Positions 42,210 through 63,018 of a DNA stretch of 64,000 nucleotides are shown here, one piece after another. The translations under genes were made by a program, and so were the position numbers. The stretch's first letter is position 1. Each line of letters begins with the position of its first letter. The stretch comes from Candidatus Marinamargulisbacteria bacterium. Lineage in GTDB: Bacteria > Margulisbacteria > Marinamargulisbacteria > UBA817. Where the stretch lies: the NCBI GenBank assembly GCA_049889215.1, contig JBMHDV010000027.1, forward strand, positions 29,594-93,593, given 5' to 3'. The notes beneath the pieces are model-generated. The model searched no databases and was not told the DNA's origin. It saw nothing but the letters and a program-made list of their open reading frames with translations.

Positions 42210-42470
42210 ATGTCAGACATTGGCCCTATCTCTGCCGATCTCCCATCTCTTGCAGAAGAGGTAATAAATTCACCTGACACAATTTCGACAACTTGTCGCG
42301 CATGTGTTGAGTCATCATCATCGGTTGATGAACTTAGCGATAAACTAAAGATACTTGAAGAAAGCATAGGAAACAGCTCGCCAGCAACAATTCAAATGAT
42401 CAATGAAATCAAAACAATGATTGAATCAGATACGAGTTTATCAGAAATCCAATCCAAACTGTCCAGTTAA
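42210..42470 (+). CDS. Small Ser-rich hypothetical protein
   Basis: 86-aa ORF immediately following previous ORF. Confidence 0.3.
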   Translation: MSDIGPISADLPSLAEEVINSPDTISTTCRACVESSSSVDELSDKLKILEESIGNSSPATIQMINEIKTMIESDTSLSEIQSKLSS

Positions 42471-47100: not shown

Positions 47101-48809
47101 GCAATGCCACGCCCTTTTAGCTGACTTTCAAACACCCCATTAAAGCCCTGCTCTGACCAAGAAACCTCACCTTTAGATTCCATTTCTTCCAAATAATACG
47201 CCTGCTGATCTGGCTGAGCTAGTTGCCCAAGGCCTGACTGATTAAACGATAAACCAGCTGAACTTAACTTTCCCGAAAACTCAAGGGCTTGGCCATTCGA
47301 CAAATAAACACTAAAAACAGGCAATTTCAACACTTGTTTTTCCTGCCTCAAAATAGCTTTTATTTTTTTTATTGTAATTCCATAAAAAGTTAAATTTAAT
47401 TGATCAAGATTAAATTCGGTTTGATTGTTTTTAGAGTCTGAGGCAAGATAAATATTTGCTGTCACTTCTGAATTAAGTACAGGAACAAAAAGAGGTAATC
47501 CTGCCAATTCAATATGATAATCATTCTTATAAATATTACCCGATACCTCATAAGATGATGATGACAAAGAGGTGAGATACCCTGGTTGACCGTCTTTTGC
47601 CACCAACTTTAAATTTACCGGATCGATATTAATCAGCTTGGATTTAATTTCACTTGTTTTAAGATAAGTGGTAAAAGTTGGGCGTTGAAACAAACCCGTC
47701 AATTTAACCATAACTGATGCATCAAAATCTAAATCAGTTGGTGGCGCTAACTTTAAATATGAAAACACATCTTCTGGTTGAATGACACCGTCAGATGCCA
47801 TCGATAAATTAAACCGTCGGTTATAAAAAGAAATGTCCCCAGAAACATTAAACGGAACATCATGAATCATTGCCCGAATGTTTTTTAATATTAAGGAAGC
47901 TTCATTATGATTTGAAAAAACAACCTGACCAGATACATTTTTCAAAGGCACCTTAAATCGAGCTGGATTAATGGATAAATAATCAAAATTAATAGCAATA
48001 TTATAGAAAAACCTCTTTTTAATTGCTTTATTTGAATTGCTCTTTATTTGACCTGAAATCTGTAAAAAGTCATCAGAAATATTAACTTTTGAAAATGGGA
48101 CTAAATATGATGCCCAGTCATCCGTCACTAATGAAACAGCTTTAAAATCATACAAGTATTCAGTCCCCTGAATTTCACCCTGAATTGAACTTCGATCAGC
48201 AGATCCAGCAATAGAAAAATCAAAATCTAGCTTCACCTTTCTTGATGAATCAAATGCAATTGTCCCTTGCCCACTTGAAAAGGAAGACGAAAACTCCTGG
48301 GCGACTTTTCCCCAACCTCTAACATCCGTATACGTACCAGATATGTCGTTAAATTGAATTGTTAATCGTGATGGAGATGCCCCGCTCTCACCACTTTTCG
48401 AAGATAATGCTTTAACAAACTCAATGATATTAACTTTTTTTGATTCTAAGCGATTAACATTTAACAGAACCCCGTTAACATTTACTTTACCAATAATATC
48501 CGACAGACCATTGGTGATGAACCGCAATGACGGATAAATCGTAACTAAATCAGCTTTAATAAAATACGTTTGGTTCTTTACAGGTGCTTGACTGTAAATC
48601 ACTACATCTTTTAAAACAATTCCAGAAAACAAGTTTCCCGATAATTGTCTAAAATCGATAGGCCTAGCCAAAGCACGCTCAATACTTTTTTCTAAATTAT
48701 CTTTCGCTATTTTATTAATAAAAGGAACTTTTAACGCGTATCCTGATACCAAAGAAAAAACTAAAAATACAAAAGCAAAAAAAGTAGTCAGCCGAAACAA
48801 TCGTTTCAT
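44106..48809 (-). CDS. TamB/AsmA-like giant translocation-and-assembly protein
   Basis: 1567 aa, N-terminal signal-anchor, beta-rich repetitive body, C-terminal DUF490-like segment; directly upstream of Omp85 gene with 17-nt overlap. Confidence 0.7.
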   Translation of the reverse strand: MKRLFRLTTFFAFVFLVFSLVSGYALKVPFINKIAKDNLEKSIERALARPIDFRQLSGNLFSGIVLKDVVIYSQAPVKNQTYFIKADLVTIYPSLRFITNGLSDIIGKVNVNGVLLNVNRLESKKVNIIEFVKALSSKSGESGASPSRLTIQFNDISGTYTDVRGWGKVAQEFSSSFSSGQGTIAFDSSRKVKLDFDFSIAGSADRSSIQGEIQGTEYLYDFKAVSLVTDDWASYLVPFSKVNISDDFLQISGQIKSNSNKAIKKRFFYNIAINFDYLSINPARFKVPLKNVSGQVVFSNHNEASLILKNIRAMIHDVPFNVSGDISFYNRRFNLSMASDGVIQPEDVFSYLKLAPPTDLDFDASVMVKLTGLFQRPTFTTYLKTSEIKSKLINIDPVNLKLVAKDGQPGYLTSLSSSSYEVSGNIYKNDYHIELAGLPLFVPVLNSEVTANIYLASDSKNNQTEFNLDQLNLTFYGITIKKIKAILRQEKQVLKLPVFSVYLSNGQALEFSGKLSSAGLSFNQSGLGQLAQPDQQAYYLEEMESKGEVSWSEQGFNGVFESQLKGRGIAYNNQRFDAFDLGYQFDNQRHKFKINDLVYGTTKLSGEVKLYQKKPILLDLNFDQFDLMLLPKLTNSQLFGSFGGVATGYLLYDHASELNFKSKLNIQGFKLQYGQLGDVFLEVETNGGEITINQCRLSGLHELDLAGSLSSKGAFDVTQKKKGFFRLDALDFFSRQKLLGDVSVKGRFFGDLSDLNFDGLVESMDLELDGIPIQYLLFDGKKLGDTLTFDQFQVQLNRGRFLANGSIDFSKTASSDTFYSFYDLNMKAANLNLNTVSDIYYTIIKKLDDFTMQSQENEFFFNEAFDYHKYQHDNLQSFMQFYSQYQKKALADNKIKGLLSGYLSINNRDLGKNKIDIILTDFDYMQMVQADLMQLKSKDITDSIENYNFYVDQLVFNKVEVESLAIDLSYNKEKNTHEITNSLMQYLGKNYNGFLLGEYNYKDKWLDMGFEFSDASLNIFSGASAYIESLYNTGYVKWKFVGPIHNLSVRSLDVDFNDFELRVVSSNDGQSSVIQVPRYRYRVDSSVLSLDVLNVIWQGDHTFRRVTRENKKNEFNISGDIDLGPIDLMKKKAKVAYNLTMKDTFFSMNFPVFFSGDVLANQIKFQGDQTLYWEKNALENIKYSLGKANESGPQLSGSLIFRDGIFNLPKRTKNKTKPRILLDLTTTLGSGNYIQGSLVGDGIFRFANNIFLELDEKNRSAPFQISGSINSPQFTTSLYFYDGSISIFDGVYELMPKSQQNHFFKDVPEYVTDQRVDLSPIQDDGFQQMMVALNLRALRKIDTQVSSKNVRNDTLPYDAIGLSINGDLSGTAAKVTVFDFGLNNAFLTFPEYELYGTYDVDLMQTDVSGSQASYYGLNLLLPKIISNSEETDFTNYGRDRINTFIRSSLRPYERRFAKRVGLYDLRLNYDFGRTILSSDSDSKINEDLFGIQTVSNLYKEKLFLTLRSDLNLSTDYVNENARGVKLTRVDVTYYFQPNFSVSLKNANEYSEVTVFDPRWSLSYAYSF

Positions 48810-50466: not shown

Positions 50467-51595
50467 AACCTCGGATATTATTTACGGCTGTTTTAAGCAA
50501 ATCAAAATCGGTCGCGATGCATGATCTTATGTAGCCCTCGCCACAATCCCCAAATACACTACCTGGAACAACAGCCACATTAGCCGCTTCCAATAATTTT
50601 TGAGCAAATGATAGTGATGTCATTCCCATTGATTGAATAGAAGAAAAACAATATAAGCCACCTGCTGGCATTATGGTTTTTAATCCCATTTGATTCATGT
50701 GATCAGTAAAATATCTCGCACGTGTCATATATGAGTTTTTCATAGCATTTACTTCATCAAATGAGTTTTTACATGCCTCTACAGCGGCAAATTGAGATAA
50801 AGTAGGCGCACACAATGCAGAATATTGATGAATTTTATTTATCATTTCAATAACATATTCCGGAGCTGCAACATAACCAATGCGCCAGCCAGTCATAGAG
50901 TGGGCCTTTGAAAAACCGTTGAGATAAATTAAATTATCTCGACATTTTTTTATTCGAGCAATTGAAAAAAATGGGTCAAAACTTAAATCTGCATAAATTT
51001 CATCAGTAATAATTAAAAGATTATTATCTAATGCAAAATCAGCGATCTCTTCTAATGTTGACTGAGGTATTGATTGCCCTGTTGGATTATTGGGGTATGA
51101 CAATACGATGGCTTTAGTTTTAGGTGTTAATGCTGCCTTCATATCAGCAATTAGCGGTATAAAGTCTGATTTTGATGTGTCAATAGAAACAACCTTGCCC
51201 CCACATAATTCAATTAATGGTCGGTAACAAACATACGATGGCTCCGGTAATAAAATTTCATCTCCAGGGTTTATCACTGACCGAAATACAATATCTACAC
51301 CCTCAGATACACCATTGGTTATTAACAGCTCATCTGAAGAATAAACAATGTTAAATTGATGATATAAATATTGACTTATCGCCTCCCTCAAGGCAAGTAA
51401 ACCTCGGTTTGAAGTATAGGTTGTTGATCCACTTTCAATACGATAAATAGCCTCATCGCGAATATTCCAAGGCGTTGAAAAATCAGGCTCTCCAACACCA
51501 AGAGAAATTACATCTTTAGAATTCATTACCAAATCAAAAAAGACACGAATCCCAGACGGAGGTATCTGCTTAACTCGTTCTGAAAAAAATGTCAT
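50447..51595 (-). CDS. PLP-dependent class I aminotransferase (AlaT/AspB-like)
   Basis: PLP-lysine motif NGFSKAHSMTGWRIGY, SYPNNPTG; 4-nt overlap with upstream Lrp gene, resembling AlaR-AlaT pairs. Confidence 0.85.
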   Translation of the reverse strand: MTFFSERVKQIPPSGIRVFFDLVMNSKDVISLGVGEPDFSTPWNIRDEAIYRIESGSTTYTSNRGLLALREAISQYLYHQFNIVYSSDELLITNGVSEGVDIVFRSVINPGDEILLPEPSYVCYRPLIELCGGKVVSIDTSKSDFIPLIADMKAALTPKTKAIVLSYPNNPTGQSIPQSTLEEIADFALDNNLLIITDEIYADLSFDPFFSIARIKKCRDNLIYLNGFSKAHSMTGWRIGYVAAPEYVIEMINKIHQYSALCAPTLSQFAAVEACKNSFDEVNAMKNSYMTRARYFTDHMNQMGLKTIMPAGGLYCFSSIQSMGMTSLSFAQKLLEAANVAVVPGSVFGDCGEGYIRSCIATDFDLLKTAVNNIRGFVSGHD

Positions 51596-52083
51596 GGCAA
51601 AATTGGCAGTCGATTAACGGAGTTTTCAGCTTCCATTAAAACACCATTTTCTTTATAAGATTTGAAAATAAAATGGGTGGTGGTTGATTTAACATTTTCT
51701 ATTGTTGCTAACTTATCAAAAACAAAATGTGCGATATCTTTATGGTCTTTACCTTCAACAACAACCAAGAAATCATATTTACCTGAAACAAGAAAATGTG
51801 ATTTCACATTTGGAAAACAATAAACCTTTTTAGCAATTGAGTCATATCCAGTATCTTTTTCTGGCCGGATACTTAATTCAACCAATGCCTTAATTGAAGA
51901 TGTTTGAATTAAATTTTCGTTAATGACAGTTGTAAACTGACAAATAATTCCAGCAGACTTCATCTCATCAATATGCTTAATCACATCATCAACATTTAAA
52001 TTAACCATACTGGCTAATTCGTCATTTGTATATCGAGAGTTTTGCAATAATAGATCCAAAATCATTCTTTTATTTTTATCCAT
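51592..52083 (-). CDS. Lrp/AsnC-family transcriptional regulator
   Basis: N-terminal HTH (LDLLLQNSRYTNDELASMVNLNVDDV) and C-terminal RAM domain. Confidence 0.85.
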   Translation of the reverse strand: MDKNKRMILDLLLQNSRYTNDELASMVNLNVDDVIKHIDEMKSAGIICQFTTVINENLIQTSSIKALVELSIRPEKDTGYDSIAKKVYCFPNVKSHFLVSGKYDFLVVVEGKDHKDIAHFVFDKLATIENVKSTTTHFIFKSYKENGVLMEAENSVNRLPILP

Positions 52084-52163
52084 ACATAAAAAGTATAATT
52101 TTATAGCAAATAAGTAAATAAAATTAAGCGCTGAGACGTATGAATTAATAGTAAAGTTTTAAT

Positions 52164-52514
52164 TTAAATCACCGTAGCAAGAATTTCTTTGTTAGAAACC
52201 GTTTGCTTATTAAACACATGATCAATATCATAGGCGTCCATTTCTTTTAAGGATAACTCAATCGACTGAGAGCTTAGAAAATTAACTCTAGACAAACAAG
52301 GCTTTGTTTTAATTTGCCGCACAAACTCTAAACCATTCATATTTGGCAACATTAATTCAGTAAAAATAACATCAACACTAGTTCGAGCTAAAAAAAGCAT
52401 TGCGTCTTTGGGGCAAAATAGCGAATATACCTCAACTGGATATTTCGCTAATAATTCAATAAAGCGACAGTGAACACTTACATCAACATCAATAATTAAA
52501 ATTCGTTGATTCAA
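52164..52514 (-). CDS. Orphan receiver (REC) domain protein with Glu in place of the phospho-acceptor Asp
   Basis: ILIIDVDV acidic pocket, DVIFTELMLPNMNGLEF aligning to CheY ISDWNMPNMDGLEL with D57 replaced by E; TTG start. Confidence 0.6.
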   Translation of the reverse strand: MNQRILIIDVDVSVHCRFIELLAKYPVEVYSLFCPKDAMLFLARTSVDVIFTELMLPNMNGLEFVRQIKTKPCLSRVNFLSSQSIELSLKEMDAYDIDHVFNKQTVSNKEILATVI

Positions 52515-52537
52515 ACTAATCCTTTTAGAAGAGGTTT

Positions 52538-52565
52538 AGTTCTAGTATAACAAAGAATTAGAACT
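52538..52565. promoter_or_regulatory. Inverted repeat in divergent promoter region between REC and XRE genes (candidate operator)
   Basis: agttcta ... tagaact, 7-bp arms with 14-bp spacer. Confidence 0.25.
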
Positions 52566-52616
52566 CATTCAATTCTACTTATTTACAATCACGATAATTT
52601 TTTTTATAATTTTAAT

Positions 52617-53267
52617 ATGGGAAGATTTGGATCAACACTTAAGCGACTTCGTGAAAATAGAAGCATATCAAAAGTTAAACTTGCTAAATGCATTGGCACT
52701 TCCGACGCATACATTCGCCAAGTTGAAAACCAAGGCTACAAACCACCAACATTTGATCTTTGTGAGAAGATATCTTCAGAACTATCATTAACTAATAACG
52801 AGAAACTTGAACTTTATGAAGCTGCTTTTATGGAAAGAATCGAATCTGAAAAAGAATTTTATAGCTTATTAAAAAATTCTATTTTTTCAAGCAGAAACCT
52901 TCCATCTACAGCATCAACAAATGTGATTACCGCAAGGTTAAAACTGCGCCAAACAGTTAAAGAAGATTTATCTTCTATTTCTTATGATGTAGAGCGTATA
53001 TTTTTTGATTATTTCCAAAAAAGCAACATTTCTATCGATAACATTGTAATTAATCAATCAAGCGTTACTTTAAATATAATGGATCAAGAAGCAACAACAG
53101 TTGAAGCAAATTTACCGAATATAATGAAACTGATTTCAAGCAAAATTAAAAGTGATTTTCCAAATTTTGCTGTCGCACCTTCGATTTGGGACAGTAATTT
53201 CGAAGTCATAAAAATATCAGAAACAGCCCAAGCCCGAACTGATAATCATGAATTATCTCGTGTTTAA
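52617..53267 (+). CDS. XRE-family HTH protein with uncharacterised C-terminal domain
   Basis: N-terminal LKRLRENRSISKVKLAKCIGTSDAYIRQVENQ HTH_XRE pattern; stop 9 nt before STAND gene. Confidence 0.7.
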   Translation: MGRFGSTLKRLRENRSISKVKLAKCIGTSDAYIRQVENQGYKPPTFDLCEKISSELSLTNNEKLELYEAAFMERIESEKEFYSLLKNSIFSSRNLPSTASTNVITARLKLRQTVKEDLSSISYDVERIFFDYFQKSNISIDNIVINQSSVTLNIMDQEATTVEANLPNIMKLISSKIKSDFPNFAVAPSIWDSNFEVIKISETAQARTDNHELSRV

Positions 53268-53276
53268 CCACGTTAA

Positions 53277-56200
53277 ATGAGTCCAACAAAATCAAATATT
53301 TTACAACTAACAAATATTTTAAATTCAAACCTAAATGAATTTTTAATTGTATCAATACAATTAATTCAAAAACTAAAACAAAGCAGCACATCGCCAAGTT
53401 TCATCACACCAGAGCAAATTATTTTAGAGAAAAGTAATAACAAGTATTCAATTGAAATAAATGACAATAAGGACAGTGACCCATTTGCAATAGACATCTA
53501 TAAATCACCTGAACAAAAAGAAAAAATTGATCGAGCCGTTGATCATCGATCCACATTTTACTCACTTGGTGTTATTTTTCACTTGATTTTAACTAAAGAA
53601 TATCCATTAAGCTTAGGAAACATTATTAGCATTAACTTTCCTTCAAACTCAACAGCGCCTCAATCTGTTCAACTCATTATTGAAAAATTATTGTGCCGGT
53701 ATCCCGAAGACCGCTACCAATCTTATGAAGGGCTTATATTAGATTTAGAAAAATGCTTAAATGCATTTGAAAAAACAGGTAATATCCCCCTATTCTTACC
53801 CGGAATAGATGACAAACCCATTGATCTAAAATTCGAACATTATTTATACGGCCGAGCAGTTGAAGTTGACTATATACAGAAATCAATTGAATCAATAAAA
53901 AAACAGAACAGTGCAGGACTTTTAATCATTCATGGTCCCTCGGGAATTGGTAAAACCCTACTTGCAAAGCATGTCATTAATAAGATAAATGTTGAAAACA
54001 AACTAGTCATTAAAACAAAACTAAATGCAACAAATGAATCGTCAATCGATTGTATTACAGATATTGTTTCAGCCATGGTAAATATTTCAAAAGAACACGC
54101 CTCTGATCGTAAACTGACAGAAAAACTAAAAAAAATAACCATAAAACATAACCGGTTATTGGAAACATTATTATCCAAAACAGAACTTGAATCACAAATT
54201 TCAAGAGAAACCATGCAATCAAAAACATTGAACTTAACTAATTTGCTTATCGACTTTTTCCAAATCATAACAGAAAAAAATACACTAATAATACAAATTG
54301 ATGACATTCAATGGTTAAATTCAGCCTCAAAAACCTCCTTAATGATGGCAACTTCCTATATTTCAAAAAATTTAATTACCATTGCTACATCCAGAAAAGA
54401 ATTTAAACCAAAAGCATCACTATTAAATCAACTATTTCCCAACGAAAAAATATCGGAAAACTTAATTGCTTCATTCAATAATTTAATTACATTTTTAGTG
54501 CCAGTGGCAGGATTAGGTATTCAAGAAATAACAGAACAAGTTCAAGATCTTTTACTGTGTAAAAAAGAAGAAGCCAATCGATTAGCAATTATTCTTCACA
54601 ACAAAACAGGTGGAAACCCTTTGTATATTCAAGAACTTTTAATTTCATTTAAAGAAAAAAATCTGCTTTGGCATGACAATAAATCAAAAGAGTGGACTTG
54701 GAAAATGTCAGAATTAGAAAAAGAAAAGGTAACAGAGAATGTTGCTGATCTTTTAATCAATAAAATTAAAACATTACCAATGACTACTCAAAAGATTTTG
54801 CATTATGCAAGTTTAATTGGAAATAAGTTTAATACATCAATAATTGCAAGCGCCCTTAAAGAAGATATGATTGCAATAGATCTAGCCCTATGGCATGCTT
54901 CAGCAAAAAAATTAATCGTATCAACCAATGAGCAACTAAAAGACCAAGAATATACGTTTTTACATGATAAAATTCAATCTGCCTGCCTTAATGATCAATT
55001 ATTTAATATCCTAGAATCCCATAAAATTATCGGAAAATCTTTATTGAAAAAATATGGGAAAGAAACATCAACAAACCATTTAACTAAAATTACATATCAC
55101 CTAAACCAAAGCGTTGGTCAATTGGATAATAATGAAATAAACGAACTCATTTATTTAAACCAAATCTGTGGTAATCAATTGTTAAAAAACTTGGTTGATC
55201 CGGACGCAGAAAAATACTTTTCAACAGCTATTAATCTCTACCATTCTTACTCAGTAAATAATACTTCTTTGCTAGAAAAGTTATATTTTTCAAATATAAC
55301 AGCTCATCAATTAAATGGTAGTACAACAAAAGCTCTAGAAATTATTAAAAAGATAAATAAAGAAATACCAAGTACAGAAAATTATCAAAAAACTCTGTTA
55401 ATACGGCTGATGATTATAACAAGTGAAACAAATTACAAAGACGCATTAACGCTTGGAATTTCGACACTGCGCTCATCAAGTCCAAATTTAAAACTTATCC
55501 CATCAACGCTTAGCATCGCTACTCAACTTATATCAACTACAATAAAGACATTTTTTAACATAAACCGACTAAAAGATCTGCCTCGAAAAAAATCGGAAAA
55601 AGCTATTTTTGAATCACAAATTCATTGTGAGTTAACTGACAGCGCATATTTTTTCAACAAAAAAACATATGTTCAATTAATTTGTAATAATATAAACCTT
55701 GTTTTTAAAAAGGGAATCTCAAAAGATACTCCTTTCATGCTGCTACAGTTCGCTAATTTACTTGTAATAAAGTTTAAACTATTTAATCTATCAAAAAAGA
55801 TATGCCAAATTGCACTAATCATTATTGAGGAATTTAAACACTCAAAATATACATTTCAAACTAGGTTTATATACTCAACTTTTATTTGCCGTTGGTTTGA
55901 AGATGAAGAAAACGTAATTAACGAACTTAATAAAAGTATAAAAAACTGCAAAGACAATAACCTTCTTTCATTTGCAATTTATTCAATTTTTCAAAATGTA
56001 CTGGTGATGCTAGGTGCAGGTAAGCCATTAGAAAATATCGAGAAATTTATTTTTAAACACAACCCATTTGTTTATTCTGTCGACTTTTTAGATACAATCC
56101 TTGCTCTAGAAATCTCAAAATGCTACATACAATCTCTTAAAAGTGGTCAAAAAAACTATCAATCATCCATATTTAATGAAAACATTGCCGTGAAAAAAAT

Positions 56201-56765
56201 GAAGGAAAATGGTTTAACTGTTTCATATGGCTGGTATATGAGCTCCAAATTAAAAACAAACTATTTTCTTGAAGATTTTGAAAATGCAAAAGCATTTGGA
56301 AATCAAACAGAAGAGTGTCTAGACTATTTATTGGGCCTAAACGAAGTGGAAGAGTTTCATTTATATCGATCACTTTCAATTTTGAATGATGCAACTAAAA
56401 GAAATCTTAAACTAACTAAAAGACAAAAAAAGCAAATTAAATCATCTATAAAATATTTTAAGCAATGGTCAAAACAAAATGCACAGAATTATGAACATAA
56501 ATACCAATTATTAACAGGGGCCCAACTTGAATATCAAAAAAAGTACAAAAAGGCTGAGTTATCATTCAAAAGAAGCCTAGAAATGGCCCATTTTAAAAAT
56601 CAAATTACGATAAAGGCACTAGCGTTGGAACACCTTGGAAAAATGAAAAAAAGACAGTGTGATCCAAACGCAAAATACATACTTCAAGATGCCATAAAAA
56701 GTTATTCAAAATGGGGAGCAAAAGAAAAAGAAAAACAACTTTCAAAAATACTTGAACAAATTTAA
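53277..56765 (+). CDS. STAND/AAA_16-type NTPase with N-terminal pseudokinase remnant and C-terminal helical repeats (PknK/MalT-like architecture without DNA-binding domain)
   Basis: Kinase C-lobe-like YKSPEQ...HRSTFYSLGVIFHLILT...YPEDRYQSYEGLILDL with HRD and DFG replaced; Walker A IHGPSGIGKTLL; Walker B LIIQIDDIQW; long helical C-terminus. Confidence 0.75.
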   Translation: MSPTKSNILQLTNILNSNLNEFLIVSIQLIQKLKQSSTSPSFITPEQIILEKSNNKYSIEINDNKDSDPFAIDIYKSPEQKEKIDRAVDHRSTFYSLGVIFHLILTKEYPLSLGNIISINFPSNSTAPQSVQLIIEKLLCRYPEDRYQSYEGLILDLEKCLNAFEKTGNIPLFLPGIDDKPIDLKFEHYLYGRAVEVDYIQKSIESIKKQNSAGLLIIHGPSGIGKTLLAKHVINKINVENKLVIKTKLNATNESSIDCITDIVSAMVNISKEHASDRKLTEKLKKITIKHNRLLETLLSKTELESQISRETMQSKTLNLTNLLIDFFQIITEKNTLIIQIDDIQWLNSASKTSLMMATSYISKNLITIATSRKEFKPKASLLNQLFPNEKISENLIASFNNLITFLVPVAGLGIQEITEQVQDLLLCKKEEANRLAIILHNKTGGNPLYIQELLISFKEKNLLWHDNKSKEWTWKMSELEKEKVTENVADLLINKIKTLPMTTQKILHYASLIGNKFNTSIIASALKEDMIAIDLALWHASAKKLIVSTNEQLKDQEYTFLHDKIQSACLNDQLFNILESHKIIGKSLLKKYGKETSTNHLTKITYHLNQSVGQLDNNEINELIYLNQICGNQLLKNLVDPDAEKYFSTAINLYHSYSVNNTSLLEKLYFSNITAHQLNGSTTKALEIIKKINKEIPSTENYQKTLLIRLMIITSETNYKDALTLGISTLRSSSPNLKLIPSTLSIATQLISTTIKTFFNINRLKDLPRKKSEKAIFESQIHCELTDSAYFFNKKTYVQLICNNINLVFKKGISKDTPFMLLQFANLLVIKFKLFNLSKKICQIALIIIEEFKHSKYTFQTRFIYSTFICRWFEDEENVINELNKSIKNCKDNNLLSFAIYSIFQNVLVMLGAGKPLENIEKFIFKHNPFVYSVDFLDTILALEISKCYIQSLKSGQKNYQSSIFNENIAVKKMKENGLTVSYGWYMSSKLKTNYFLEDFENAKAFGNQTEECLDYLLGLNEVEEFHLYRSLSILNDATKRNLKLTKRQKKQIKSSIKYFKQWSKQNAQNYEHKYQLLTGAQLEYQKKYKKAELSFKRSLEMAHFKNQITIKALALEHLGKMKKRQCDPNAKYILQDAIKSYSKWGAKEKEKQLSKILEQI

Positions 56766-56810
56766 TAATTCAGTATTGAAAAGCAAGACTAAAGTGAATA
56801 TTATATAATA

Positions 56811-57329
56811 ATGCTTATTGACTTATTTGATGAAGAAAAAGAAAACCCAGATGATTATATATCATTTTTAGTATTTGAGCCTGCCTCACTAAGAATTCCT
56901 GATAATGACTTATTATTAATTGGTGACCCAGTCACAGACTTATTTAAAAAAGTAAATTTATCAGATAGTTTTAATTCATCCCTTCCAGATCAAATTTTAA
57001 AAAACCGCTTACAGAGAATAGAAATGATGATCGATTTACTCAAAAATAACGATGGTCTTATCATGACCAAATTTTTAAACAAAATTTGGAGAAGATATAG
57101 CTTTTTTAGTAACTTAGGTGAGCTATTTGTTACTCAAGGTGAACTTAAAAGATTAGTTCCGGATTACTCATTTAACGAAAACCCAATTTTAGAACGTTTC
57201 ATTTTAGAAGAGATCGACGAATCCGAAGATAATAATGAGGATGAAAACGACGATGAAAAGGAAAGTGAAACAACTGAAAATTCAGACTCTAAATCATCTT
57301 CAAAAAAAAGTGAAGTTGAAAGTAAGTAA
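56811..57329 (+). CDS. Hypothetical protein with strongly acidic C-terminal tail
   Basis: 172-aa ORF ending EEIDESEDNNEDENDDEKESETTENSD. Confidence 0.4.
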   Translation: MLIDLFDEEKENPDDYISFLVFEPASLRIPDNDLLLIGDPVTDLFKKVNLSDSFNSSLPDQILKNRLQRIEMMIDLLKNNDGLIMTKFLNKIWRRYSFFSNLGELFVTQGELKRLVPDYSFNENPILERFILEEIDESEDNNEDENDDEKESETTENSDSKSSSKKSEVESK

Positions 57330-57340
57330 GATTAAGTCTT

Positions 57341-58366
57341 TTGTCTTTTTCCTTATCTGATTTTGATTATTATCTACCAGATGCTCAAATCGCTCATACA
57401 CCCACTGAAAGAAGAGATAAATCTAAATTATTAAAATACAACAAATTAACAAAAGAAGTATCAGATCATACATTTGATGAATTTAGTGATTTAATCCCAA
57501 ACAATAGTGTTATCGTCTTTAATAATACAAAAGTACTGAAAGCTAGAGTAATATGCTACCGTGAGTCAGGTGCAAAAATAGAGTGTTTTTTTTTAAAAAA
57601 AATATCTGAAAAGAGATGGGAAGTTATAATAAAAAACAGTCGTCGAATTTCGAATAATGAAACACTAATCATCGATAAAAAAAACAGCATAAAAGTAATC
57701 GAAAAAAAAGACAAATGCGCCATTGTTTGCATAAAAAGTAACATGGAAGATTTTGAGTTTCTTGAAAATTTTGGAAAAACACCGCTTCCTCCATATATTA
57801 AAACCAAAGATCCAGATAAATTCCATGAACGATACCAAAGCATTTTTGCATCAAACCCCGGTGCTGTTGCCGCACCAACAGCAAGCTTACATTTTACAGA
57901 TAAAATATTTTCTCAACTTAAGTCAAAAAATATCGAAATATTATATGTTACCCTACATATTGGCTTAGGAACGTTTAATCCAATAACAAAAGAAAATATA
58001 ATTGATCATAAAATGCATAAAGAAAACTATTCCATAACTAAATCTACAGCAGCGAAATTAAACCAGGCAAAAAAAGAAAAAAAACCAATTTTTGCCGTGG
58101 GTACAACCGTTGCACGTTGCTTGGAATCAAATATCAAAGATAACCTATTTTCAGAACAAACAACAGACACAGACCTTTATATTTTTCCTGGCTATGAATA
58201 TAAAGGGATTGATGGCTTACTAACCAACTTTCACTTGCCTAAATCATCACTTTTTATTTTAGTTGCAGCCATGATTGGCCTTAAAAATATTCAAGATATT
58301 TATCAACATGCCATTGAACATGACTATCGTTTTTTTAGTTTTGGAGACGCAATGTTAATTTCATAA
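57341..58366 (+). CDS. queA: S-adenosylmethionine:tRNA ribosyltransferase-isomerase
   Basis: N-terminal FDYYLPDAQIAHTP, central TPLPPYIK, C-terminal QueA pattern. Confidence 0.9.
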   Translation: MSFSLSDFDYYLPDAQIAHTPTERRDKSKLLKYNKLTKEVSDHTFDEFSDLIPNNSVIVFNNTKVLKARVICYRESGAKIECFFLKKISEKRWEVIIKNSRRISNNETLIIDKKNSIKVIEKKDKCAIVCIKSNMEDFEFLENFGKTPLPPYIKTKDPDKFHERYQSIFASNPGAVAAPTASLHFTDKIFSQLKSKNIEILYVTLHIGLGTFNPITKENIIDHKMHKENYSITKSTAAKLNQAKKEKKPIFAVGTTVARCLESNIKDNLFSEQTTDTDLYIFPGYEYKGIDGLLTNFHLPKSSLFILVAAMIGLKNIQDIYQHAIEHDYRFFSFGDAMLIS

Positions 58367-61300
58367 TGGGATTTCGATGGCTAGCTTTAATATGTTTTCT
58401 TCATATTTCAATATGCGGCTCACAAATTTACATGCCAGGTTACCCCAAATATTCCATCATTACTTCGCATAATATAGAAGAACAGGCAACAACCAACAAT
58501 GTCTATCCAAAAGTAGATTCCTCGGGTTTTGTAGAGATGAAATTTTCTGGCCGGAATTATACGAAAGATCTAAATAAACTAGAAACAATCCGACAAGATC
58601 CATATTACAAAAAAATTCCAAATGAAGTTCAACCTGGCTCAAATAGTTTTAAAACTCGATATTTAATCGACTTAAATGGAGAACTTGATGAAAGTACATC
58701 TGTAAACGTTCATATTCAAAAGGAGCCAGAATTCCCAGGAGTTTATAACGTTAATATCAAACATAAGAAATCTGAAATTAGCTTTGGCGATTATAAAACT
58801 AACTACTCATCAGGTGAGTTTGTTAATGTGGAAAAATATCTTAATGGAGCTCAAGTTAGCTACACTGATGATCAATGGTACGGAAAAAGCAGTATTGGAT
58901 CAGAAAAGTCTGAGCCACAAAAGTTTGAAACATTTGGTAATAATTCAAAAACTTATAAAGTAGGGCGATCTTTTTTACTCGAAGGTTCAGTTATCGTTTA
59001 TGTAAATGGAGGTAATAATCCACTCACTGAAAACGTAGATTATACAGTGAATTATTATGATGGTTCTGTCACATTCAAAAAAGCAAAAACAAAGGTGGAT
59101 TTTATTCAGATTATTTATGAATTTACGAATCCAATTCAAGATTTTATACCTGCGCTTTCTCGCAAAGATTTTGTTGGATTAACATATATTTACAACCCAT
59201 CACAAAATGTTAATATCAACGAATTTATTTTGAAAAATGCCACAACAAATATACATATTTCAGATAACAAGGAAATACTTGAAAACCGCATCAAATTAAA
59301 AAAGTTACCGATAGAATTGGGCAGTGAAATAATTTACCACAACTCCAACCAATTAACGCAATCAAATGATTATCATATTGACTATAACTCTGGCATCATT
59401 CGATTTATTAAGAAGCCTTTAATAATCGATGATAGATTAAAAATTAGTTACACATATTTTGAAACAGGTAAATCTGAAGATCGATTTATTGGTAATGGTA
59501 CGCCTGGCCCCTATAAATTAAAGCATAAACATCCAATTACAGAATCATTAGAAATTCACTTGGGAGGTAAGCAGGCACGTGAATTTATTGATTATATTTA
59601 TAAAAAAGAAACAAATAGTATTCAGTTTATGTATGAAGTTTACTCTAATAAATTAATTAGAGTCACTTATAGATACAAAAAAGTTCAACAATCAAAAGTT
59701 AGCTTTAAAGATAGTCCCGTATCATACTCAGTCACATATCTTAATGAGTCAAATCGCATTAGAAAAGATGAATTGCAAAGCAAAGAAAACATAACCCCAA
59801 GCTCAATTACTGGAGTAAACAATAATATTATTGTTCTTCCAGATAACCCAATAGACTCAAATAAACCAATTCAATTAACCATTAATGGTTCAGATATTAG
59901 TGAATCAGAATATAGCGTCAATTATTACGAAGGCACAATCACCGTTTTAAATCAGTCAAATTTAACTCTTAATAATGTAAAAGTAAGCTACTCTAGTCAA
60001 AATAGTATTAATTCCGAACACTCCATTCAAGGATTAAGTATTTCTCAATACAATCAAGATCAAATCAAATTTAAGTCACTCCCAATAAAATACGATGGAA
60101 TACAAAAAATAACTCTATACTCACCTGAAGAAATGGTATTAGAAGAAGGTACAGAATACGAAATAATGTACATCAATAATGGCGAAAACTTTACCGACAT
60201 CCAAATTAAGTTCTTGCTAGGAAACTATTCTAGATTAACCAAATACCCATCAGGGTCCGATGTCATAAAATTTGATTACCTTTATACCCCATCGTCTGAT
60301 GACATACAATCAGAATCAAAACATGAAATAATTGACGTGCGATTAAAAAAGAAGATAAGGGATAACTGGAATATTTTTACTGAAATAGCAAATAGTAAAT
60401 ATAACTTTTCAAAAGCCACAGAATTTAAAAAAGAAACATTTAAAAATAACCAACCAAATAATATATATCAATTAAGTAATTCGCCCATTGAAGAAAACTC
60501 TGAGCTGGTATTTATTAATGGGTTTTCTCAATCAAAAGATAATGACTACTACATCAACTATGAACAAGGAATAATAACATTCATTAATAAAACAATCCCT
60601 GACGGTCAAACAGTTGAAATTTCATACAATTACTTCTTATCAAAAACAGCAAACATTGGGGATGCTAATGCATATTCAATTGAATCTGAATACAGCCCAA
60701 CATCATCAGTTATTATAAAAAACAAAATGAATAGTGTAGACCCAACGTTTCTGCCCATTGGTAATGCAAATATATCAAAGGGGATGTCAACTCAATCACA
60801 CGAAATAAACTGGAAATTTAACAAAAATGAATCAGCTCACTTTTTTTATAATAACGAAAAAATTAAAAATATTAACAATGAAAAGGTTTACGAAAAGAAC
60901 AGCTATATTTCAAAACTCGAACTTCAAGCGCTTGTATTTAAAACTACACATGAAATTCGATATGACGATATTGCATCAAGCGAAAATTACAAAGAAACAC
61001 CGAAAAAAATTATTGAATATAACAATGACATTATCTTAGACAACTTTAACGATCGTTGGACATTATCTAATCGAATATCTCAAAAAAATGAATCCGTGTC
61101 CTCCACAACCTCTCTTAATTCACTAATTGCATCAACAAAACTTAATTATTTAAAAACATTTGGCTATAAAAATTTGATAAAAGAAAGCACATTTAGCCCA
61201 TTTATTGGTATTGAATTAGATAAAACAAATACATCAACATTAAGCACTTACAATGAAAAAAGAATAGAAAATTTTGGATTGAATATAGATAGCACATTAA

Positions 61301-63018
61301 TATCAGATATTAAAAACACATCAAATTTTGAGAAAAGTATTCATAAAATTTATTTTATAGACAATAAACAGTTTATTTCTCCTTACTACAACTATAACTC
61401 TTTTACTCAAATTTCCCCGTTTGAATGGTTGAATACTAATATTAATATTAATCATGAGGAAAGTATTAGCCCAATACCAGGAATAGAAGATAAAGTTGAA
61501 GATCGCCAAGGATACAATATTGTGAGAATTGCCAATGATGCATTTCTTGAATATTCAAATGTCCCTGATTTTATTTATAAACAATTTAAAAATAGTTACT
61601 CAAGCCTTGGTTATTTAAAAACGAAACGTCGAGAAAACAATGCTTTAAAAAAATATAAGGAAGATCGATTATTTACAACAATCAATAACCTTACTTTTGT
61701 TGAATGGGTAAAAATACCCAAAATTAAATATAACGCCTATGTATCTGATCTTGTAGATAAAAAAGAAACATCATATCAATCTGAAAGCATCTCAAAAACA
61801 GACTTTAAAGAAGTAAATACAAATTTTACAATTAAACCAAACGTAAATATTCTAAATAAGCTTTCATTTGATGGAGATTATAAATATTCCAAATCAACAT
61901 TAGACTCTCAACTAACATTAACCAGTGGAACAGTAAACAATACAGAATCCATTGTTTCAAAAGATCAACAAACCTATGGCTTAAACATCAACTTACCCAA
62001 TATCCCATTGGGGATAACTACTATCGCATCACCAACTCTCCGAATTGAAACAAAATGGAATAATACAATCGACAAAAACTCAACAAAATCATCCGATCAA
62101 GAAAATAACTCATTTTTAATCAATAATAGCTTTGTCTCAGCCAACGCACTAAATCTTCAATACCAACTGTTTAAAAAAACTAAAATCAAAAATACCTTTT
62201 TAAGTGAAAATTCTTTTTTTAACCGAAACAAAATAAGCTCATCAACTGGGTCATTATTCAAAACAAGACAATCAGCAGATCAATCGATTAAGTATCCAAT
62301 GTTTAATTTTCTTCAAAATACTGAATATATTAAATTTGAAGCCTTAAGACAATACAAAAATAATCAAATTAATATAATGCCAAAAACGATCAAGTCAAAT
62401 TATAATAACTTTCTATCATTGGATGAGTTATTAGCTTCTCACGAATCAATGTTAAACTTATCAAGATTTTTTTCTATTAATGGAAATATTGAATACAAAA
62501 AGTTAGATCAAAACTCCACCAATGAAAATACCGAAAACCCTCACAAGCTATTCGAACAGAAAAAAGGAAGTGCTGGTGCGATTATTAAGCCACTTTCAGG
62601 CTTGGAGCTTCGTTATGACTATTCTTTAAAACAAATCAGTTCGAATACGATTGATACAAAACAAGGAAATGAAGAAAAAATTTCAATAATATATAACCCT
62701 ATAAAATACGACAATTTTGAAGTTCAATTTAATTTTTCTAAAGAAATAAACACAGGCAATGGCTTTAATGACATTCAAAAAGACATCTTATTTCAAACAA
62801 CAAACGAATCAATAGAATTAAATGTTATTCCAAGAAATGATGAGATTTACCTCAGTTCATTGAACCTAAACATAAATATTCCAAATAATATTAGTCCAAT
62901 TATCGAAAAAATATCATTTACAGGTGAAGGGTATTTTAAATATATTGTCGATCGAATTAATCCTGAAAACCAATTTTATATCAATGGCTTCCTATTTTCG
63001 TTTAAAATGGATTTATAA
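58366..63018 (+). CDS. Giant secreted/surface protein (1550 aa) with repeated ~50-aa beta-rich modules and beta-strand-like C-terminus
   Basis: Signal peptide MGFRWLALICFLHISICG; repeats such as VIVYVNGGNNPLTENVDYTVNYYDGSVTF, LVFINGFSQSKDNDYYINYEQGIITF; ATG overlaps queA stop (TAATG). Confidence 0.7.
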   Translation: MGFRWLALICFLHISICGSQIYMPGYPKYSIITSHNIEEQATTNNVYPKVDSSGFVEMKFSGRNYTKDLNKLETIRQDPYYKKIPNEVQPGSNSFKTRYLIDLNGELDESTSVNVHIQKEPEFPGVYNVNIKHKKSEISFGDYKTNYSSGEFVNVEKYLNGAQVSYTDDQWYGKSSIGSEKSEPQKFETFGNNSKTYKVGRSFLLEGSVIVYVNGGNNPLTENVDYTVNYYDGSVTFKKAKTKVDFIQIIYEFTNPIQDFIPALSRKDFVGLTYIYNPSQNVNINEFILKNATTNIHISDNKEILENRIKLKKLPIELGSEIIYHNSNQLTQSNDYHIDYNSGIIRFIKKPLIIDDRLKISYTYFETGKSEDRFIGNGTPGPYKLKHKHPITESLEIHLGGKQAREFIDYIYKKETNSIQFMYEVYSNKLIRVTYRYKKVQQSKVSFKDSPVSYSVTYLNESNRIRKDELQSKENITPSSITGVNNNIIVLPDNPIDSNKPIQLTINGSDISESEYSVNYYEGTITVLNQSNLTLNNVKVSYSSQNSINSEHSIQGLSISQYNQDQIKFKSLPIKYDGIQKITLYSPEEMVLEEGTEYEIMYINNGENFTDIQIKFLLGNYSRLTKYPSGSDVIKFDYLYTPSSDDIQSESKHEIIDVRLKKKIRDNWNIFTEIANSKYNFSKATEFKKETFKNNQPNNIYQLSNSPIEENSELVFINGFSQSKDNDYYINYEQGIITFINKTIPDGQTVEISYNYFLSKTANIGDANAYSIESEYSPTSSVIIKNKMNSVDPTFLPIGNANISKGMSTQSHEINWKFNKNESAHFFYNNEKIKNINNEKVYEKNSYISKLELQALVFKTTHEIRYDDIASSENYKETPKKIIEYNNDIILDNFNDRWTLSNRISQKNESVSSTTSLNSLIASTKLNYLKTFGYKNLIKESTFSPFIGIELDKTNTSTLSTYNEKRIENFGLNIDSTLISDIKNTSNFEKSIHKIYFIDNKQFISPYYNYNSFTQISPFEWLNTNININHEESISPIPGIEDKVEDRQGYNIVRIANDAFLEYSNVPDFIYKQFKNSYSSLGYLKTKRRENNALKKYKEDRLFTTINNLTFVEWVKIPKIKYNAYVSDLVDKKETSYQSESISKTDFKEVNTNFTIKPNVNILNKLSFDGDYKYSKSTLDSQLTLTSGTVNNTESIVSKDQQTYGLNINLPNIPLGITTIASPTLRIETKWNNTIDKNSTKSSDQENNSFLINNSFVSANALNLQYQLFKKTKIKNTFLSENSFFNRNKISSSTGSLFKTRQSADQSIKYPMFNFLQNTEYIKFEALRQYKNNQINIMPKTIKSNYNNFLSLDELLASHESMLNLSRFFSINGNIEYKKLDQNSTNENTENPHKLFEQKKGSAGAIIKPLSGLELRYDYSLKQISSNTIDTKQGNEEKISIIYNPIKYDNFEVQFNFSKEINTGNGFNDIQKDILFQTTNESIELNVIPRNDEIYLSSLNLNINIPNNISPIIEKISFTGEGYFKYIVDRINPENQFYINGFLFSFKMDL

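What the first reader, a model, noticed from the sequence alone, without database searches (positions are those of the whole stretch)
53277..53760. N-terminus of the STAND protein is a kinase C-lobe remnant with no catalytic motifs
Residues ~60-160 align with protein kinase subdomains VIII-XI (YKSPEQ for the APE motif, HRSTFYSLGVIFHLILT for D-x-W-S-x-G, YPEDRYQS for the subdomain XI Arg). The positions expected for HRD and DFG read FIT and NDN. There is no room for a glycine-rich loop or VAIK lysine before the gene start, since two in-frame stops lie just upstream. This looks like a pseudokinase scaffold fused to a P-loop ATPase, related in architecture to PknK-type kinase-AAA-TPR proteins but catalytically dead.
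Basis: partly seen in the sequence, partly recalled or inferred. Interest (0 to 1): 0.6.

Follow-up and report, generated by a model that had tools for sequence, protein, structure and literature searches.

The report
Half a kinase heading a STAND ATPase
The first 167 residues of this 1162-residue bacterial switch ATPase are a well-folded, conserved protein-kinase C-lobe with no N-lobe and no catalytic residues, a bacterial counterpart of the eukaryotic KIND domain that can only act by binding, not by phosphorylating.

Summary

The roughly 85-residue N-lobe is missing. It is not encoded upstream or in any frame of the 64 kb window. The catalytic Asp, Asn and DFG are replaced (P40-S41-F42...Q47; N62-D63-N64). 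The APE Glu (E79), the aF Asp (D89) and the subdomain XI Arg (R146) are kept.

The rest is a STAND NTPase with Walker A, Walker B, GxP and an MHD-like motif, followed by a 580-aa alpha-solenoid. The protein belongs to the CP1/COG3899 kinase-ATPase family, where pseudokinases are already described, not specifically to PknK.

It lacks both the N-lobe and the GAF/output domains. This short form is syntenic across Candidatus Marinamargulisbacteria and occurs in other lineages. The C-lobe is better conserved than the NTPase domain. The gene is coupled to an HTH_3 protein with a dead IS200-like domain.

Most likely role: a non-catalytic docking or regulatory domain. Novelty: new variant of a known kind.

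The parts
52582..52610 (+). Best sigma-70-like promoter match (TTTACA-17-TATAAT, 11 of 12), ending 6 nt before the HTH gene's ATG. Putative promoter of the two-gene operon.
   Evidence: consensus match only
52617..53267 (+). Partner gene: 216-aa HTH_3 DNA-binding protein. Its C-terminal domain is a degenerate IS200/Y1-transposase-like domain in which the HUH motif and the catalytic Tyr are absent.
   Evidence: Pfam HTH_3. Full-length homology to HTH_3+Y1_Tnp proteins beside related STANDs.
53265..53276 (+). TAA-CCA-CGT-TAA: two stops in the frame of the STAND gene, leaving no upstream coding room for an N-lobe.
53277..56765 (+). 1162-aa C-lobe-only pseudokinase / STAND NTPase gene.
53277..53777 (+). 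Kinase C-lobe, aa 1-167: aD 4-15, aE 19-35, b7 48-53, b8 56-61, aF 90-106, a beta hairpin 111-118 in place of aG, aH 129-138, aI 150-167.
53394..53417 (+). Degenerate catalytic loop PSFITPEQ (aa 40-47), aligned to HKDIKPSN. Catalytic Asp is F42, Lys is T44, Asn is Q47.
   Evidence: hmmalign to the family kinase HMM
53460..53468 (+). NDN (aa 62-64) at the DFG position, directly after b8. The orthologue P0001 reads DFN here.
53499..53516 (+). YKSPEQ (aa 75-80): retained P+1/APE motif. P78 and E79 are invariant across 48-55 family members.
53541..53570 (+). DHRSTFYSLG (aa 89-98): start of aF with the retained DxWSxG-type Asp (D89) and G98.
53700..53723 (+). YPEDRYQS (aa 142-149): subdomain XI with invariant R146, the partner of E79.
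53778..53855 (+). Linker aa 168-193 with the clade motif F-x-P-G-x-D-D-K-P. This is the best conserved stretch (73% identity to P0001).
53856..54506 (+). P-loop NTPase domain (AAA_16), aa 194-410. Walker A GPSGIGKT 220-227 (53934-53957). Walker B LIIQIDD 337-343 (54285-54305).
54519..54986 (+). Helical plus winged-helix STAND modules, aa 415-570. GxP motif TGGNPLY 444-450. MHD-like FLHD 561-564.
   Evidence: fold matches to 6mfv, Apaf-1 and MalT
55008..56762 (+). C-terminal alpha-solenoid (TPR-like), aa 578-1161: presumed sensor. No GAF or output domain follows.

Best explanation
Shown:
- The gene encodes a STAND (signal-transduction ATPase with numerous domains) switch of the CP1/COG3899 kinase-ATPase family.
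- Its only non-STAND domain is a C-lobe-only pseudokinase.
- The ancestor had a full Hanks-type kinase domain. In this clade the catalytic residues decayed first, because sister proteins P0096 and P0099 keep a dead N-lobe. Then the whole N-lobe (b1-b5 and aC, about 85 aa) and helix aG were deleted, and the GAF/output domains were lost.
- The structural core of the C-lobe survives: the E79-R146 pair, D89 of aF, and helices aE, aF, aH and aI. So does a highly conserved linker into the NTPase.
- The domain has no ATP-binding lobe and no catalytic Asp, Asn or DFG Asp, so it cannot phosphorylate anything.

Inferred:
- As in other STAND proteins, the C-terminal solenoid senses a signal. This permits ADP/ATP exchange at the intact Walker A, Walker B and MHD site and drives oligomerisation.
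- The N-terminal C-lobes then act as a non-catalytic docking or regulatory module, as KIND domains do in eukaryotes.
- The most likely client is the co-transcribed, translationally coupled HTH_3 / dead-IS200-like protein. Its sequestration or release would turn the signal into a transcriptional response.
For: - Kinase C-lobe identity.
- N-lobe absent and start codon genuine: (query position ~18 aligns to position ~101 in full-length relatives).
- Catalytic residues replaced.
- STAND architecture with intact nucleotide motifs.
- Family membership: (17,334 relatives at E <= 0.001); PMC12599244 describes CP1 kinases fused to COG3899, about 40% of them pseudokinases.
- Conservation of the C-lobe: 49% identity to P0001 against 42% for the whole protein and 27% for aa 196-360. 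Nonsynonymous difference 0.20 for the C-lobe against 0.30 for the NTPase domain between L001 and L085.
- The same N-lobe-less form sits at the same chromosomal position in six other Marinamargulisbacteria contigs, whose QueA, where compared (L001 and L172), is only 59-60% identical.
- N-lobe-less short forms occur in other contexts: P0150, P0243 and P0218.
- Stepwise decay.
- Partner linkage: an HTH_3+Y1_Tnp-like gene is adjacent or within 2 kb in WIN, L001, L084/L136, L086, L087/88 and L169-L172, but in none of about 75 loci of the main family. Start/stop overlap or a 10-nt gap is seen in WIN, L001, L084, L169 and L172.
Against: - No interaction was tested. The tools gave no model coordinates and no multimer prediction.
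- Helix aG, a classic docking site, is replaced by a hairpin, so the ancestral substrate surface is partly gone.
- The best conserved part is the C-terminal half of the lobe plus the linker. That fits an intramolecular structural role equally well.
- The HTH partner is absent from the available flanks of P0218 (15 kb read) and P0135 (740 nt upstream).
- Synonymous sites are saturated, so selection is judged only from relative amino-acid divergence.
Confidence: 0.6

Rival explanations
1. Intramolecular cap. The C-lobe survives only because, together with the conserved linker, it packs on the NTPase domain and controls autoinhibition or oligomerisation. It has no external client.
For: The linker aa 166-195 (73% identity) and the aF-aI half of the lobe (56-64%) are the most conserved stretches. 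The first 100 residues are at 40-48%. The LEKC...G-I...F-x-G...LYGRE linker is shared with the whole CP1 family. aG is deleted. Some clade members have no HTH neighbour.
Against: It does not explain why aD, aE and the b7-b8 hairpin are kept and predicted with high confidence. It also does not explain the clade-specific association with the HTH/Y1-like gene. N-terminal domains of STAND proteins are usually effector or adaptor domains (established knowledge of Apaf-1, NLRs and MalT).
Confidence: 0.3
2. Anti-phage or conflict STAND (Avs-like). The solenoid recognises a phage protein and the C-lobe plus the HTH/dead-transposase protein form the effector arm.
For: The module evolves fast: 29-49% identity against QueA 59-60% and GyrA 86%. 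HTH_3 control proteins and STAND NTPases are common in defence loci. PADLOC hits the HTH domain (HTH_VI, control protein).
Against: No PADLOC model matches the STAND part; the only hits are generic kinase models on aa 75-163. The module sits in fixed synteny between AsnC/aminotransferase genes and queA in all seven Marinamargulisbacteria contigs examined besides the window, with no defence-island neighbours. No nuclease, TIR, protease or other toxic effector is present.
Confidence: 0.1
3. Neutral vestige. The N-terminal 167 residues are a decaying leftover without function.
For: Catalytic motifs are gone, aG and the activation loop are shortened, and P0150 has lost even the b7-b8 region.
Against: The domain is more conserved than the NTPase domain. 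It is predicted as a compact fold at pLDDT 87. The structural keystones E79, D89 and R146 are invariant or nearly so in the N-lobe-less sequences compared. It is retained in lineages whose QueA is only 59-60% identical.
Confidence: 0.05
4. Annotation or assembly artefact. The true gene starts upstream, or the N-lobe was cut off by a recent nonsense or frameshift mutation.
For: The upstream ORF is in the same frame and only 9 nt away.
Against: The upstream ORF is an HTH_3 protein homologous over its full length to separate genes in other loci. In L001 and L172 it overlaps the STAND start in a different frame. N-lobe HMM searches of all six frames of the window and of 11 related loci find nothing, while controls score E 1.8e-34 to 6e-7.
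Confidence: 0.02

Closest known systems
CP1 family of bacterial Ser/Thr kinases and pseudokinases fused to COG3899 (AAA_16) ATPase; NCBI name 'trifunctional serine/threonine-protein kinase/ATP-binding protein/sensor histidine kinase'
   Same: Homologous over 93% of the query length (E down to 1e-67 with one sequence, 1e-116 with a profile). It shares the C-lobe, the linker, the AAA_16 NTPase, the GxP and FLHD motifs, and the solenoid. About 40% of the family are already described as pseudokinases (PMC12599244).
   Different: Typical members are 1700-2000 aa with a full bilobal kinase domain and C-terminal GAF plus histidine kinase, cyclase, GGDEF or PP2C outputs. This protein lacks the entire N-lobe, helix aG and all output domains. 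N-lobe loss is not mentioned in the CP1 descriptions read.
[quoted passage not shown]
   Same: A kinase C-lobe without N-lobe and without catalytic residues, placed at the N-terminus of a multidomain protein. It acts purely as a protein-binding module (PMC2064798, PMC11231147).
   Different: KIND is eukaryotic. Pfam reports only Pkinase for the N-terminal 208 aa at E <= 1, so no KIND match. The origin is independent, from a bacterial CP1 kinase. The fusion partner is a STAND ATPase. No ligand is known.
Mycobacterium tuberculosis PknK (kinase - AAA_16 - helical regulator)
   Same: Same general order: a kinase-fold domain followed by an AAA_16 STAND module and a helical C-terminus (my own knowledge; papers listed).
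   Different: PknK is an active kinase with known substrates (PMC9045387). No direct sequence comparison was run here, and the nearest relatives found were CP1-type proteins, not PknK.
STAND NTPases with solved structures: PH0952 (6mfv), Apaf-1 (1z6t), MalT (8bob)
   Same: The full-length model matches them best (Foldseek E 3e-11, 3e-9 and 2e-7). The order P-loop NTPase, helical domain, winged helix, repeat sensor is the same.
   Different: Sequence identity is 13-14%. Their N-terminal domains are absent, or a CARD, or something else, never a kinase lobe.
Bacterial bilobal pseudokinases (MviN/ActPs3, EssB/YukC, CP1 pseudokinases P0011, P0022, P0080, P0096, P0099)
   Same: Loss of the catalytic Lys, Asp and Asp with retention of the fold for non-catalytic roles.
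   Different: All of those keep both lobes.

Membership tests
Hanks-type protein kinase domain (Pkinase, PF00069) | N-lobe with Gly-rich loop, VAIK Lys and aC Glu | tested here: not met
   The protein starts at family-HMM position ~84-100. No N-lobe in any frame of the window.
Hanks-type protein kinase domain (Pkinase, PF00069) | Catalytic loop H-R/K-D-x-K-x-x-N | tested here: not met
   Aligned residues are P40-S41-F42-I43-T44-P45-E46-Q47.
Hanks-type protein kinase domain (Pkinase, PF00069) | DFG metal-binding Asp | tested here: not met
   N62-D63-N64 follows b8. P0001 has DFN and P0242 has EFK.
Hanks-type protein kinase domain (Pkinase, PF00069) | C-lobe core: APE Glu, aF Asp (DxWSxG), subdomain XI Arg | tested here: met
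   E79, D89 and R146 align with PknB and are invariant in the clade.
Hanks-type protein kinase domain (Pkinase, PF00069) | Score above Pfam gathering threshold | tested here: not met
   14.9 bits against 31.7.
Hanks-type protein kinase domain (Pkinase, PF00069) | Kinase C-lobe fold | tested here: met
CP1 / COG3899 kinase-ATPase family | Homology through the COG3899 (AAA_16 plus helical) region | tested here: met
   93% query coverage; 17,334 relatives.
CP1 / COG3899 kinase-ATPase family | Complete N-terminal kinase or pseudokinase domain | tested here: not met
   Only HMM positions 100-325 of 326 are present.
CP1 / COG3899 kinase-ATPase family | C-terminal GAF/PAS plus output domain (frequent, not universal) | tested here: not met
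   The protein ends with the solenoid. No GAF, HATPase, cyclase or GGDEF hit.
STAND NTPase | Walker A GxxGxGK[ST] and Walker B hhhhDD | tested here: met
   GPSGIGKT 220-227 and LIIQIDD 337-343.
STAND NTPase | GxP motif in the helical domain and an MHD-like His-Asp in the winged helix | tested here: met
   G446-N447-P448, and F561-L-H563-D564 (F561, H563 and D564 nearly invariant). Equating FLHD with the MHD motif rests on my own knowledge.
STAND NTPase | NOD - helical - WH - repeat-sensor fold | tested here: met
   AF2 pLDDT 86.5. Best PDB matches are 6mfv, Apaf-1 and MalT.
STAND NTPase | Nucleotide-dependent oligomerisation | not testable with these tools
   Needs biochemistry.
KIND domain (PF16474 / SM00750) | Sequence match to the KIND profile | tested here: not met
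   Only Pkinase is reported for the N-terminal 208 aa at E <= 1.
KIND domain (PF16474 / SM00750) | C-lobe-only kinase fold without catalytic residues | tested here: met
KIND domain (PF16474 / SM00750) | Binds a defined partner peptide | not testable with these tools
   No multimer prediction or assay was available.
PknK-type kinase-AAA-helical proteins | Specific sequence relationship to PknK | not tested
   The PknK sequence was not compared. The nearest relatives found are CP1-type.

The most novel reading that the evidence does not exclude
Bacteria have independently made a KIND-like domain. Within the CP1 kinase-STAND family the N-lobe was deleted, probably more than once, leaving a C-lobe that serves as the docking head of an ATP-driven oligomeric switch. 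In the short-form clade this head works together with a second pseudoenzyme, an HTH protein carrying a dead IS200-type transposase domain. The result would be a two-gene, catalysis-free signalling module that turns ligand sensing by the solenoid into transcriptional control.
Probability: 0.3. Interest if true: 0.65.

Novelty: new variant of a known kind. Interest (0 to 1): 0.5.

Why it matters
Pseudokinases are normally defined by point losses in a bilobal domain, and surveys of bacterial kinomes are built on full-domain alignments. A stable, selected half-kinase shows that such surveys miss a class of kinase-derived domains.

It also shows that the C-lobe alone can be a functional unit in bacteria, as KIND is in animals. 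This gives a simple system for asking what the C-lobe contributes to CP1/COG3899 STAND switches, whose function is unknown even in cyanobacteria and Leptospira.

It also links these switches to a candidate output: an HTH protein with a domesticated, inactive IS200-like domain.

The clade belongs to Marinamargulisbacteria, an uncultured marine sister group of cyanobacteria (my own knowledge), so any regulatory module that can be assigned there is useful.

Tried and rejected
- **Upstream ORF as a split-off N-lobe.** Rejected. It is an HTH_3 / Y1_Tnp-like protein, and no kinase similarity was found.
- **N-lobe supplied in trans from within the window.** Six-frame search with an N-lobe HMM gave a best E of 0.16. 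The same search in 11 related loci found nothing, while controls were detected.
- **Species-representative genomes searched with the two-sequence alignment.** No relative found because the patterns were too specific. The orthologue in MAG JAYNJH01 turned up later through the HTH partner.
- **Metagenome scan with the clade alignment.** It returned almost only main-family loci. These served as a background set.
- **Word-indexed search with the C-lobe-only profile.** Only 5 hits, so the size of the clade remains unmeasured.
- **dN/dS.** Synonymous sites are saturated (pS 0.7-0.9), so only relative nonsynonymous divergence is usable.
- **PADLOC.** No defence-system assignment.
- **Base composition.** The whole 51.6-63 kb stretch is at 29-32% GC, so the module is not a compositional island.
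- **Full-length AF2 model.** No coordinates or PAE were available, so C-lobe/NTPase contacts could not be read.
- **Literature search for bacterial C-lobe-only kinases.** Nothing relevant found.
Full report
**The observation.** ORF 53277-56765 (+) encodes 1162 aa.
- YKSPEQ, aa 75-80
- DHRSTFYSLG, aa 89-98
- YPEDRYQS, aa 142-149

Immediately upstream the sequence reads TAA CCA CGT TAA ATG. Two stops therefore lie in the gene's own frame.

**Is it a kinase lobe?** General libraries give weak hits, all to the same stretch and the same part of the kinase profile:
- Pfam Pkinase E 0.018 (aa 75-148 = positions 163-253 of 263)
- NCBIfam PknB_PASTA_kin 2.7e-7
- PADLOC kinase models down to 9e-8
- PknB structures E 0.005 (aa 75-161 = PknB 185-280)

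I built an HMM from the first 330 residues of 60 full-length relatives. It scores the window protein at 99.7 bits (E 4.4e-30 among all six-frame ORFs of the window), with aa 17-216 aligned to profile positions 100-325 of 326. A profile of eight N-lobe-less N-termini finds a genuine Ser/Thr kinase at E 1.2e-8 in 5.8 billion sequences.

The secondary structure is that of a C-lobe: aD, aE, the b7-b8 hairpin, aF, aH and aI. A short hairpin at 111-118 stands where aG should be.

**What is missing.** In the exhaustive HMMER search, typical relatives align query residue ~18 with their residue ~101, and residues 5-7 with 89-91. About 85 residues, the whole N-lobe, are absent.

hmmalign shows the state of the catalytic motifs:
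- The catalytic loop HKDIKPSN is replaced by PSFITPEQ (Asp to F42, Lys to T44, Asn to Q47).
- There is no DFG.
- The activation segment is shortened.
- The aG segment is deleted.

NDN (62-64) sits at the DFG position, since the orthologue P0001 reads DFN there.

**Is the start real?**
- The upstream in-frame ORF (52617-53267) is an HTH_3 protein. It is 44% identical to the separate upstream gene of the orthologous locus L001. There the two genes overlap by 4 nt (ATGA) in different frames.
- In L172 they overlap by 11 nt.
- Orthologues P0001, P0242/P0095, L169 and L171 start at the equivalent residue.
- An N-lobe HMM finds nothing in any frame of the window (best E 0.16) or of 11 related loci. 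It detects the controls at 1.8e-34, 3.3e-5 and 6.3e-7.

**The rest of the protein.**
- AAA_16, aa 190-354
- Walker A GPSGIGKT, Walker B LIIQIDD, GxP motif TGGNPLY, and an MHD-like FLHD
- An alpha-solenoid, aa 578-1161

The full-length model (pLDDT 86.5) is closest to the STAND-TPR protein 6mfv, Apaf-1 and MalT.

**Family.** All relatives except one close homologue are 1700-2000-aa proteins with Pkinase + AAA_16 + GAF + histidine kinase, cyclase, GGDEF or PP2C domains. NCBI names them 'trifunctional serine/threonine-protein kinase/ATP-binding protein/sensor histidine kinase'. This is the CP1 family of the bacterial kinome atlas: always linked to COG3899, about 40% pseudokinases (PMC12599244). 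Neither text mentions loss of a lobe.

**Distribution.** GyrA places the window in Candidatus Marinamargulisbacteria, 82-88% identical to several MAGs.

The same gene order is found in L001, L169, L170, L171 and L172; L085 is too short to show it. The order is: AsnC, usually a response regulator, then divergently the HTH gene, the STAND gene, a 170-aa ORF, queA and a 1550-aa ORF. The long-read contigs L169-L171 carry frameshift-split genes throughout, which I read as assembly errors.

QueA is 59-60% identical between these genomes, against 29-49% for the STAND protein.

Within the STAND protein the identities to P0001 are:

| Region | Identity to P0001 |
|---|---|
| C-lobe | 49% |
| Linker 166-195 | 73% |
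| aa 196-360 | 27% |

Nonsynonymous divergence between L001 and L085 is 0.20 for the C-lobe and 0.30 for the NTPase domain. Synonymous sites are saturated. The half-kinase is therefore under selection, not decaying.

**Beyond this clade.**
- Three further short proteins lack the N-lobe and the outputs and have degenerate motifs: P0150 (1136 aa), P0243 (1185 aa) and P0218 (1150 aa).
- P0218 lies inside a 33.9-kb contig, 139 nt from a divergent PBP gene, so its start is not a contig-edge artefact.
- In a rough NJ tree of the post-kinase region they group with the window protein and with P0096 and P0099 (1266 and 1256 aa). Those two keep a degenerate N-lobe, have dead catalytic motifs and also lack outputs.
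- All except P0218 share the linker motif F-x-P-G-x-x-D-x-P.
- This suggests an order of events: loss of outputs and of catalysis first, then deletion of the N-lobe, possibly more than once.
- N-lobe-less proteins with degenerate motifs but with GAF/HK outputs also occur in the main family: P0036, P0061, P0102, P0211, L131 and L149. I could not check each start.

**The partner.** The HTH protein is homologous over its whole length to HTH_3 + Y1_Tnp (IS200-like) proteins. These are encoded next to P0150 (overlapping its start) and within 2 kb of P0096 and P0099.

| Protein | Pfam Y1_Tnp E-value |
|---|---|
| L086 protein | 3.5e-11 |
| L087 protein | 7.2e-11 |
| L084 protein | 7.5e-8 |
| L001 protein | 1.3e-3 |
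| Window protein | no hit |

The HUH motif and the catalytic Tyr are missing in all five.

None of about 75 main-family metagenome loci has such a neighbour within 4 kb. The best promoter-like site of the region ends 6 nt before the HTH ATG, and a second one precedes the 172-aa ORF. The HTH and STAND genes are therefore probably a bicistronic unit.

**Interpretation.** The domain cannot bind ATP in the kinase manner and cannot catalyse phosphotransfer. By analogy with STAND proteins, the intact NTPase should drive signal-dependent oligomerisation, which would cluster the N-terminal C-lobes.

I consider a docking or regulatory role most likely, with the HTH protein as first candidate client. 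This step is inference. The main rival is a purely intramolecular role of the C-lobe plus linker. That rival is favoured by the conservation gradient and by the loss of aG.

A defence role, a neutral vestige and an annotation artefact are less likely, or excluded, for the reasons given under the rival explanations.

**Comparison and novelty.** In function and shape the closest known thing is the eukaryotic KIND domain. By descent it is a CP1/COG3899 protein. It fails the defining kinase features that lie in the N-lobe and the active site, and it meets those of the C-lobe core and of STAND NTPases.

I rate it a new variant of a known kind, of moderate interest.

Noticed in passing
window 52617-53267 (+); also L001:1081-1746, L084:890-1621, L086:10154-10882 (-), L087:6297-7022 (-): HTH_3 protein whose C-terminal domain is an IS200/Y1-transposase-like domain without the HUH motif and the catalytic Tyr. 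It is a clade-specific neighbour of the short pseudokinase-STAND proteins: 19 relatives were found, mostly in Marinamargulisbacteria-like contigs.
   Followed up: partly
window 56811-57329 (+): 172-aa ORF with no hit in Pfam, NCBIfam or PADLOC. It is 70-73% identical in L001 and L172, so better conserved than QueA. It has its own promoter-like site at 56776-56804.
   Followed up: partly
window 58366-63018 (+): 1550-aa protein with only a weak match to phage distal tail protein models (TIGR02217, 2.8e-11; DUF2460) at aa 183-251. It is syntenic downstream of queA in L171 and L172 (1546 and 1545 aa) and, cut by the contig end, in L001.
   Followed up: no
window 44106-48809 (-) and 42467-44122 (-): 1567-aa protein with no NCBIfam hit. 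Its end overlaps by 17 nt the start of an Omp85/BamA/TamA-like gene. Possibly a TamB-like partner.
   Followed up: no
window 52582-52610 and 56776-56804 (+): The two best sigma-70-like matches of the region each end 6 nt before an ATG. This hints at leaderless or near-leaderless mRNAs. No Shine-Dalgarno sequence is visible before ATG 53277.
   Followed up: no
window 53265-53279 versus L001:1743-1746 and L172:6620-6630: In the window the HTH and STAND genes are in the same frame, separated by TAA-CCA-CGT-TAA. In orthologues they overlap by 4 or 11 nt in different frames. The junction is evolutionarily fluid but always tight.
   Followed up: yes
L169, L170, L171 (ENA pilon-polished long-read contigs): The STAND, PALP, aminotransferase and queA genes are each split into several ORFs by frameshifts. 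These look like assembly errors, not pseudogenes.
   Followed up: partly
window 51592-63018: This stretch has 29-32% GC against 35.6% for the window and 37-40% for gyrA, lysS and metG. The low GC is not restricted to the HTH-STAND pair.
   Followed up: partly
window 6158-8476 (-): 772-aa protein with a DnaQ-type 3'-5' exonuclease domain in the first 190 residues and an unassigned 580-aa remainder.
   Followed up: no
window 53607-53630 (aa 111-118): In both AF2 models the kinase aG helix is replaced by a short beta hairpin. The corresponding ~15 residues of the family consensus are deleted in all short-form proteins.
   Followed up: partly
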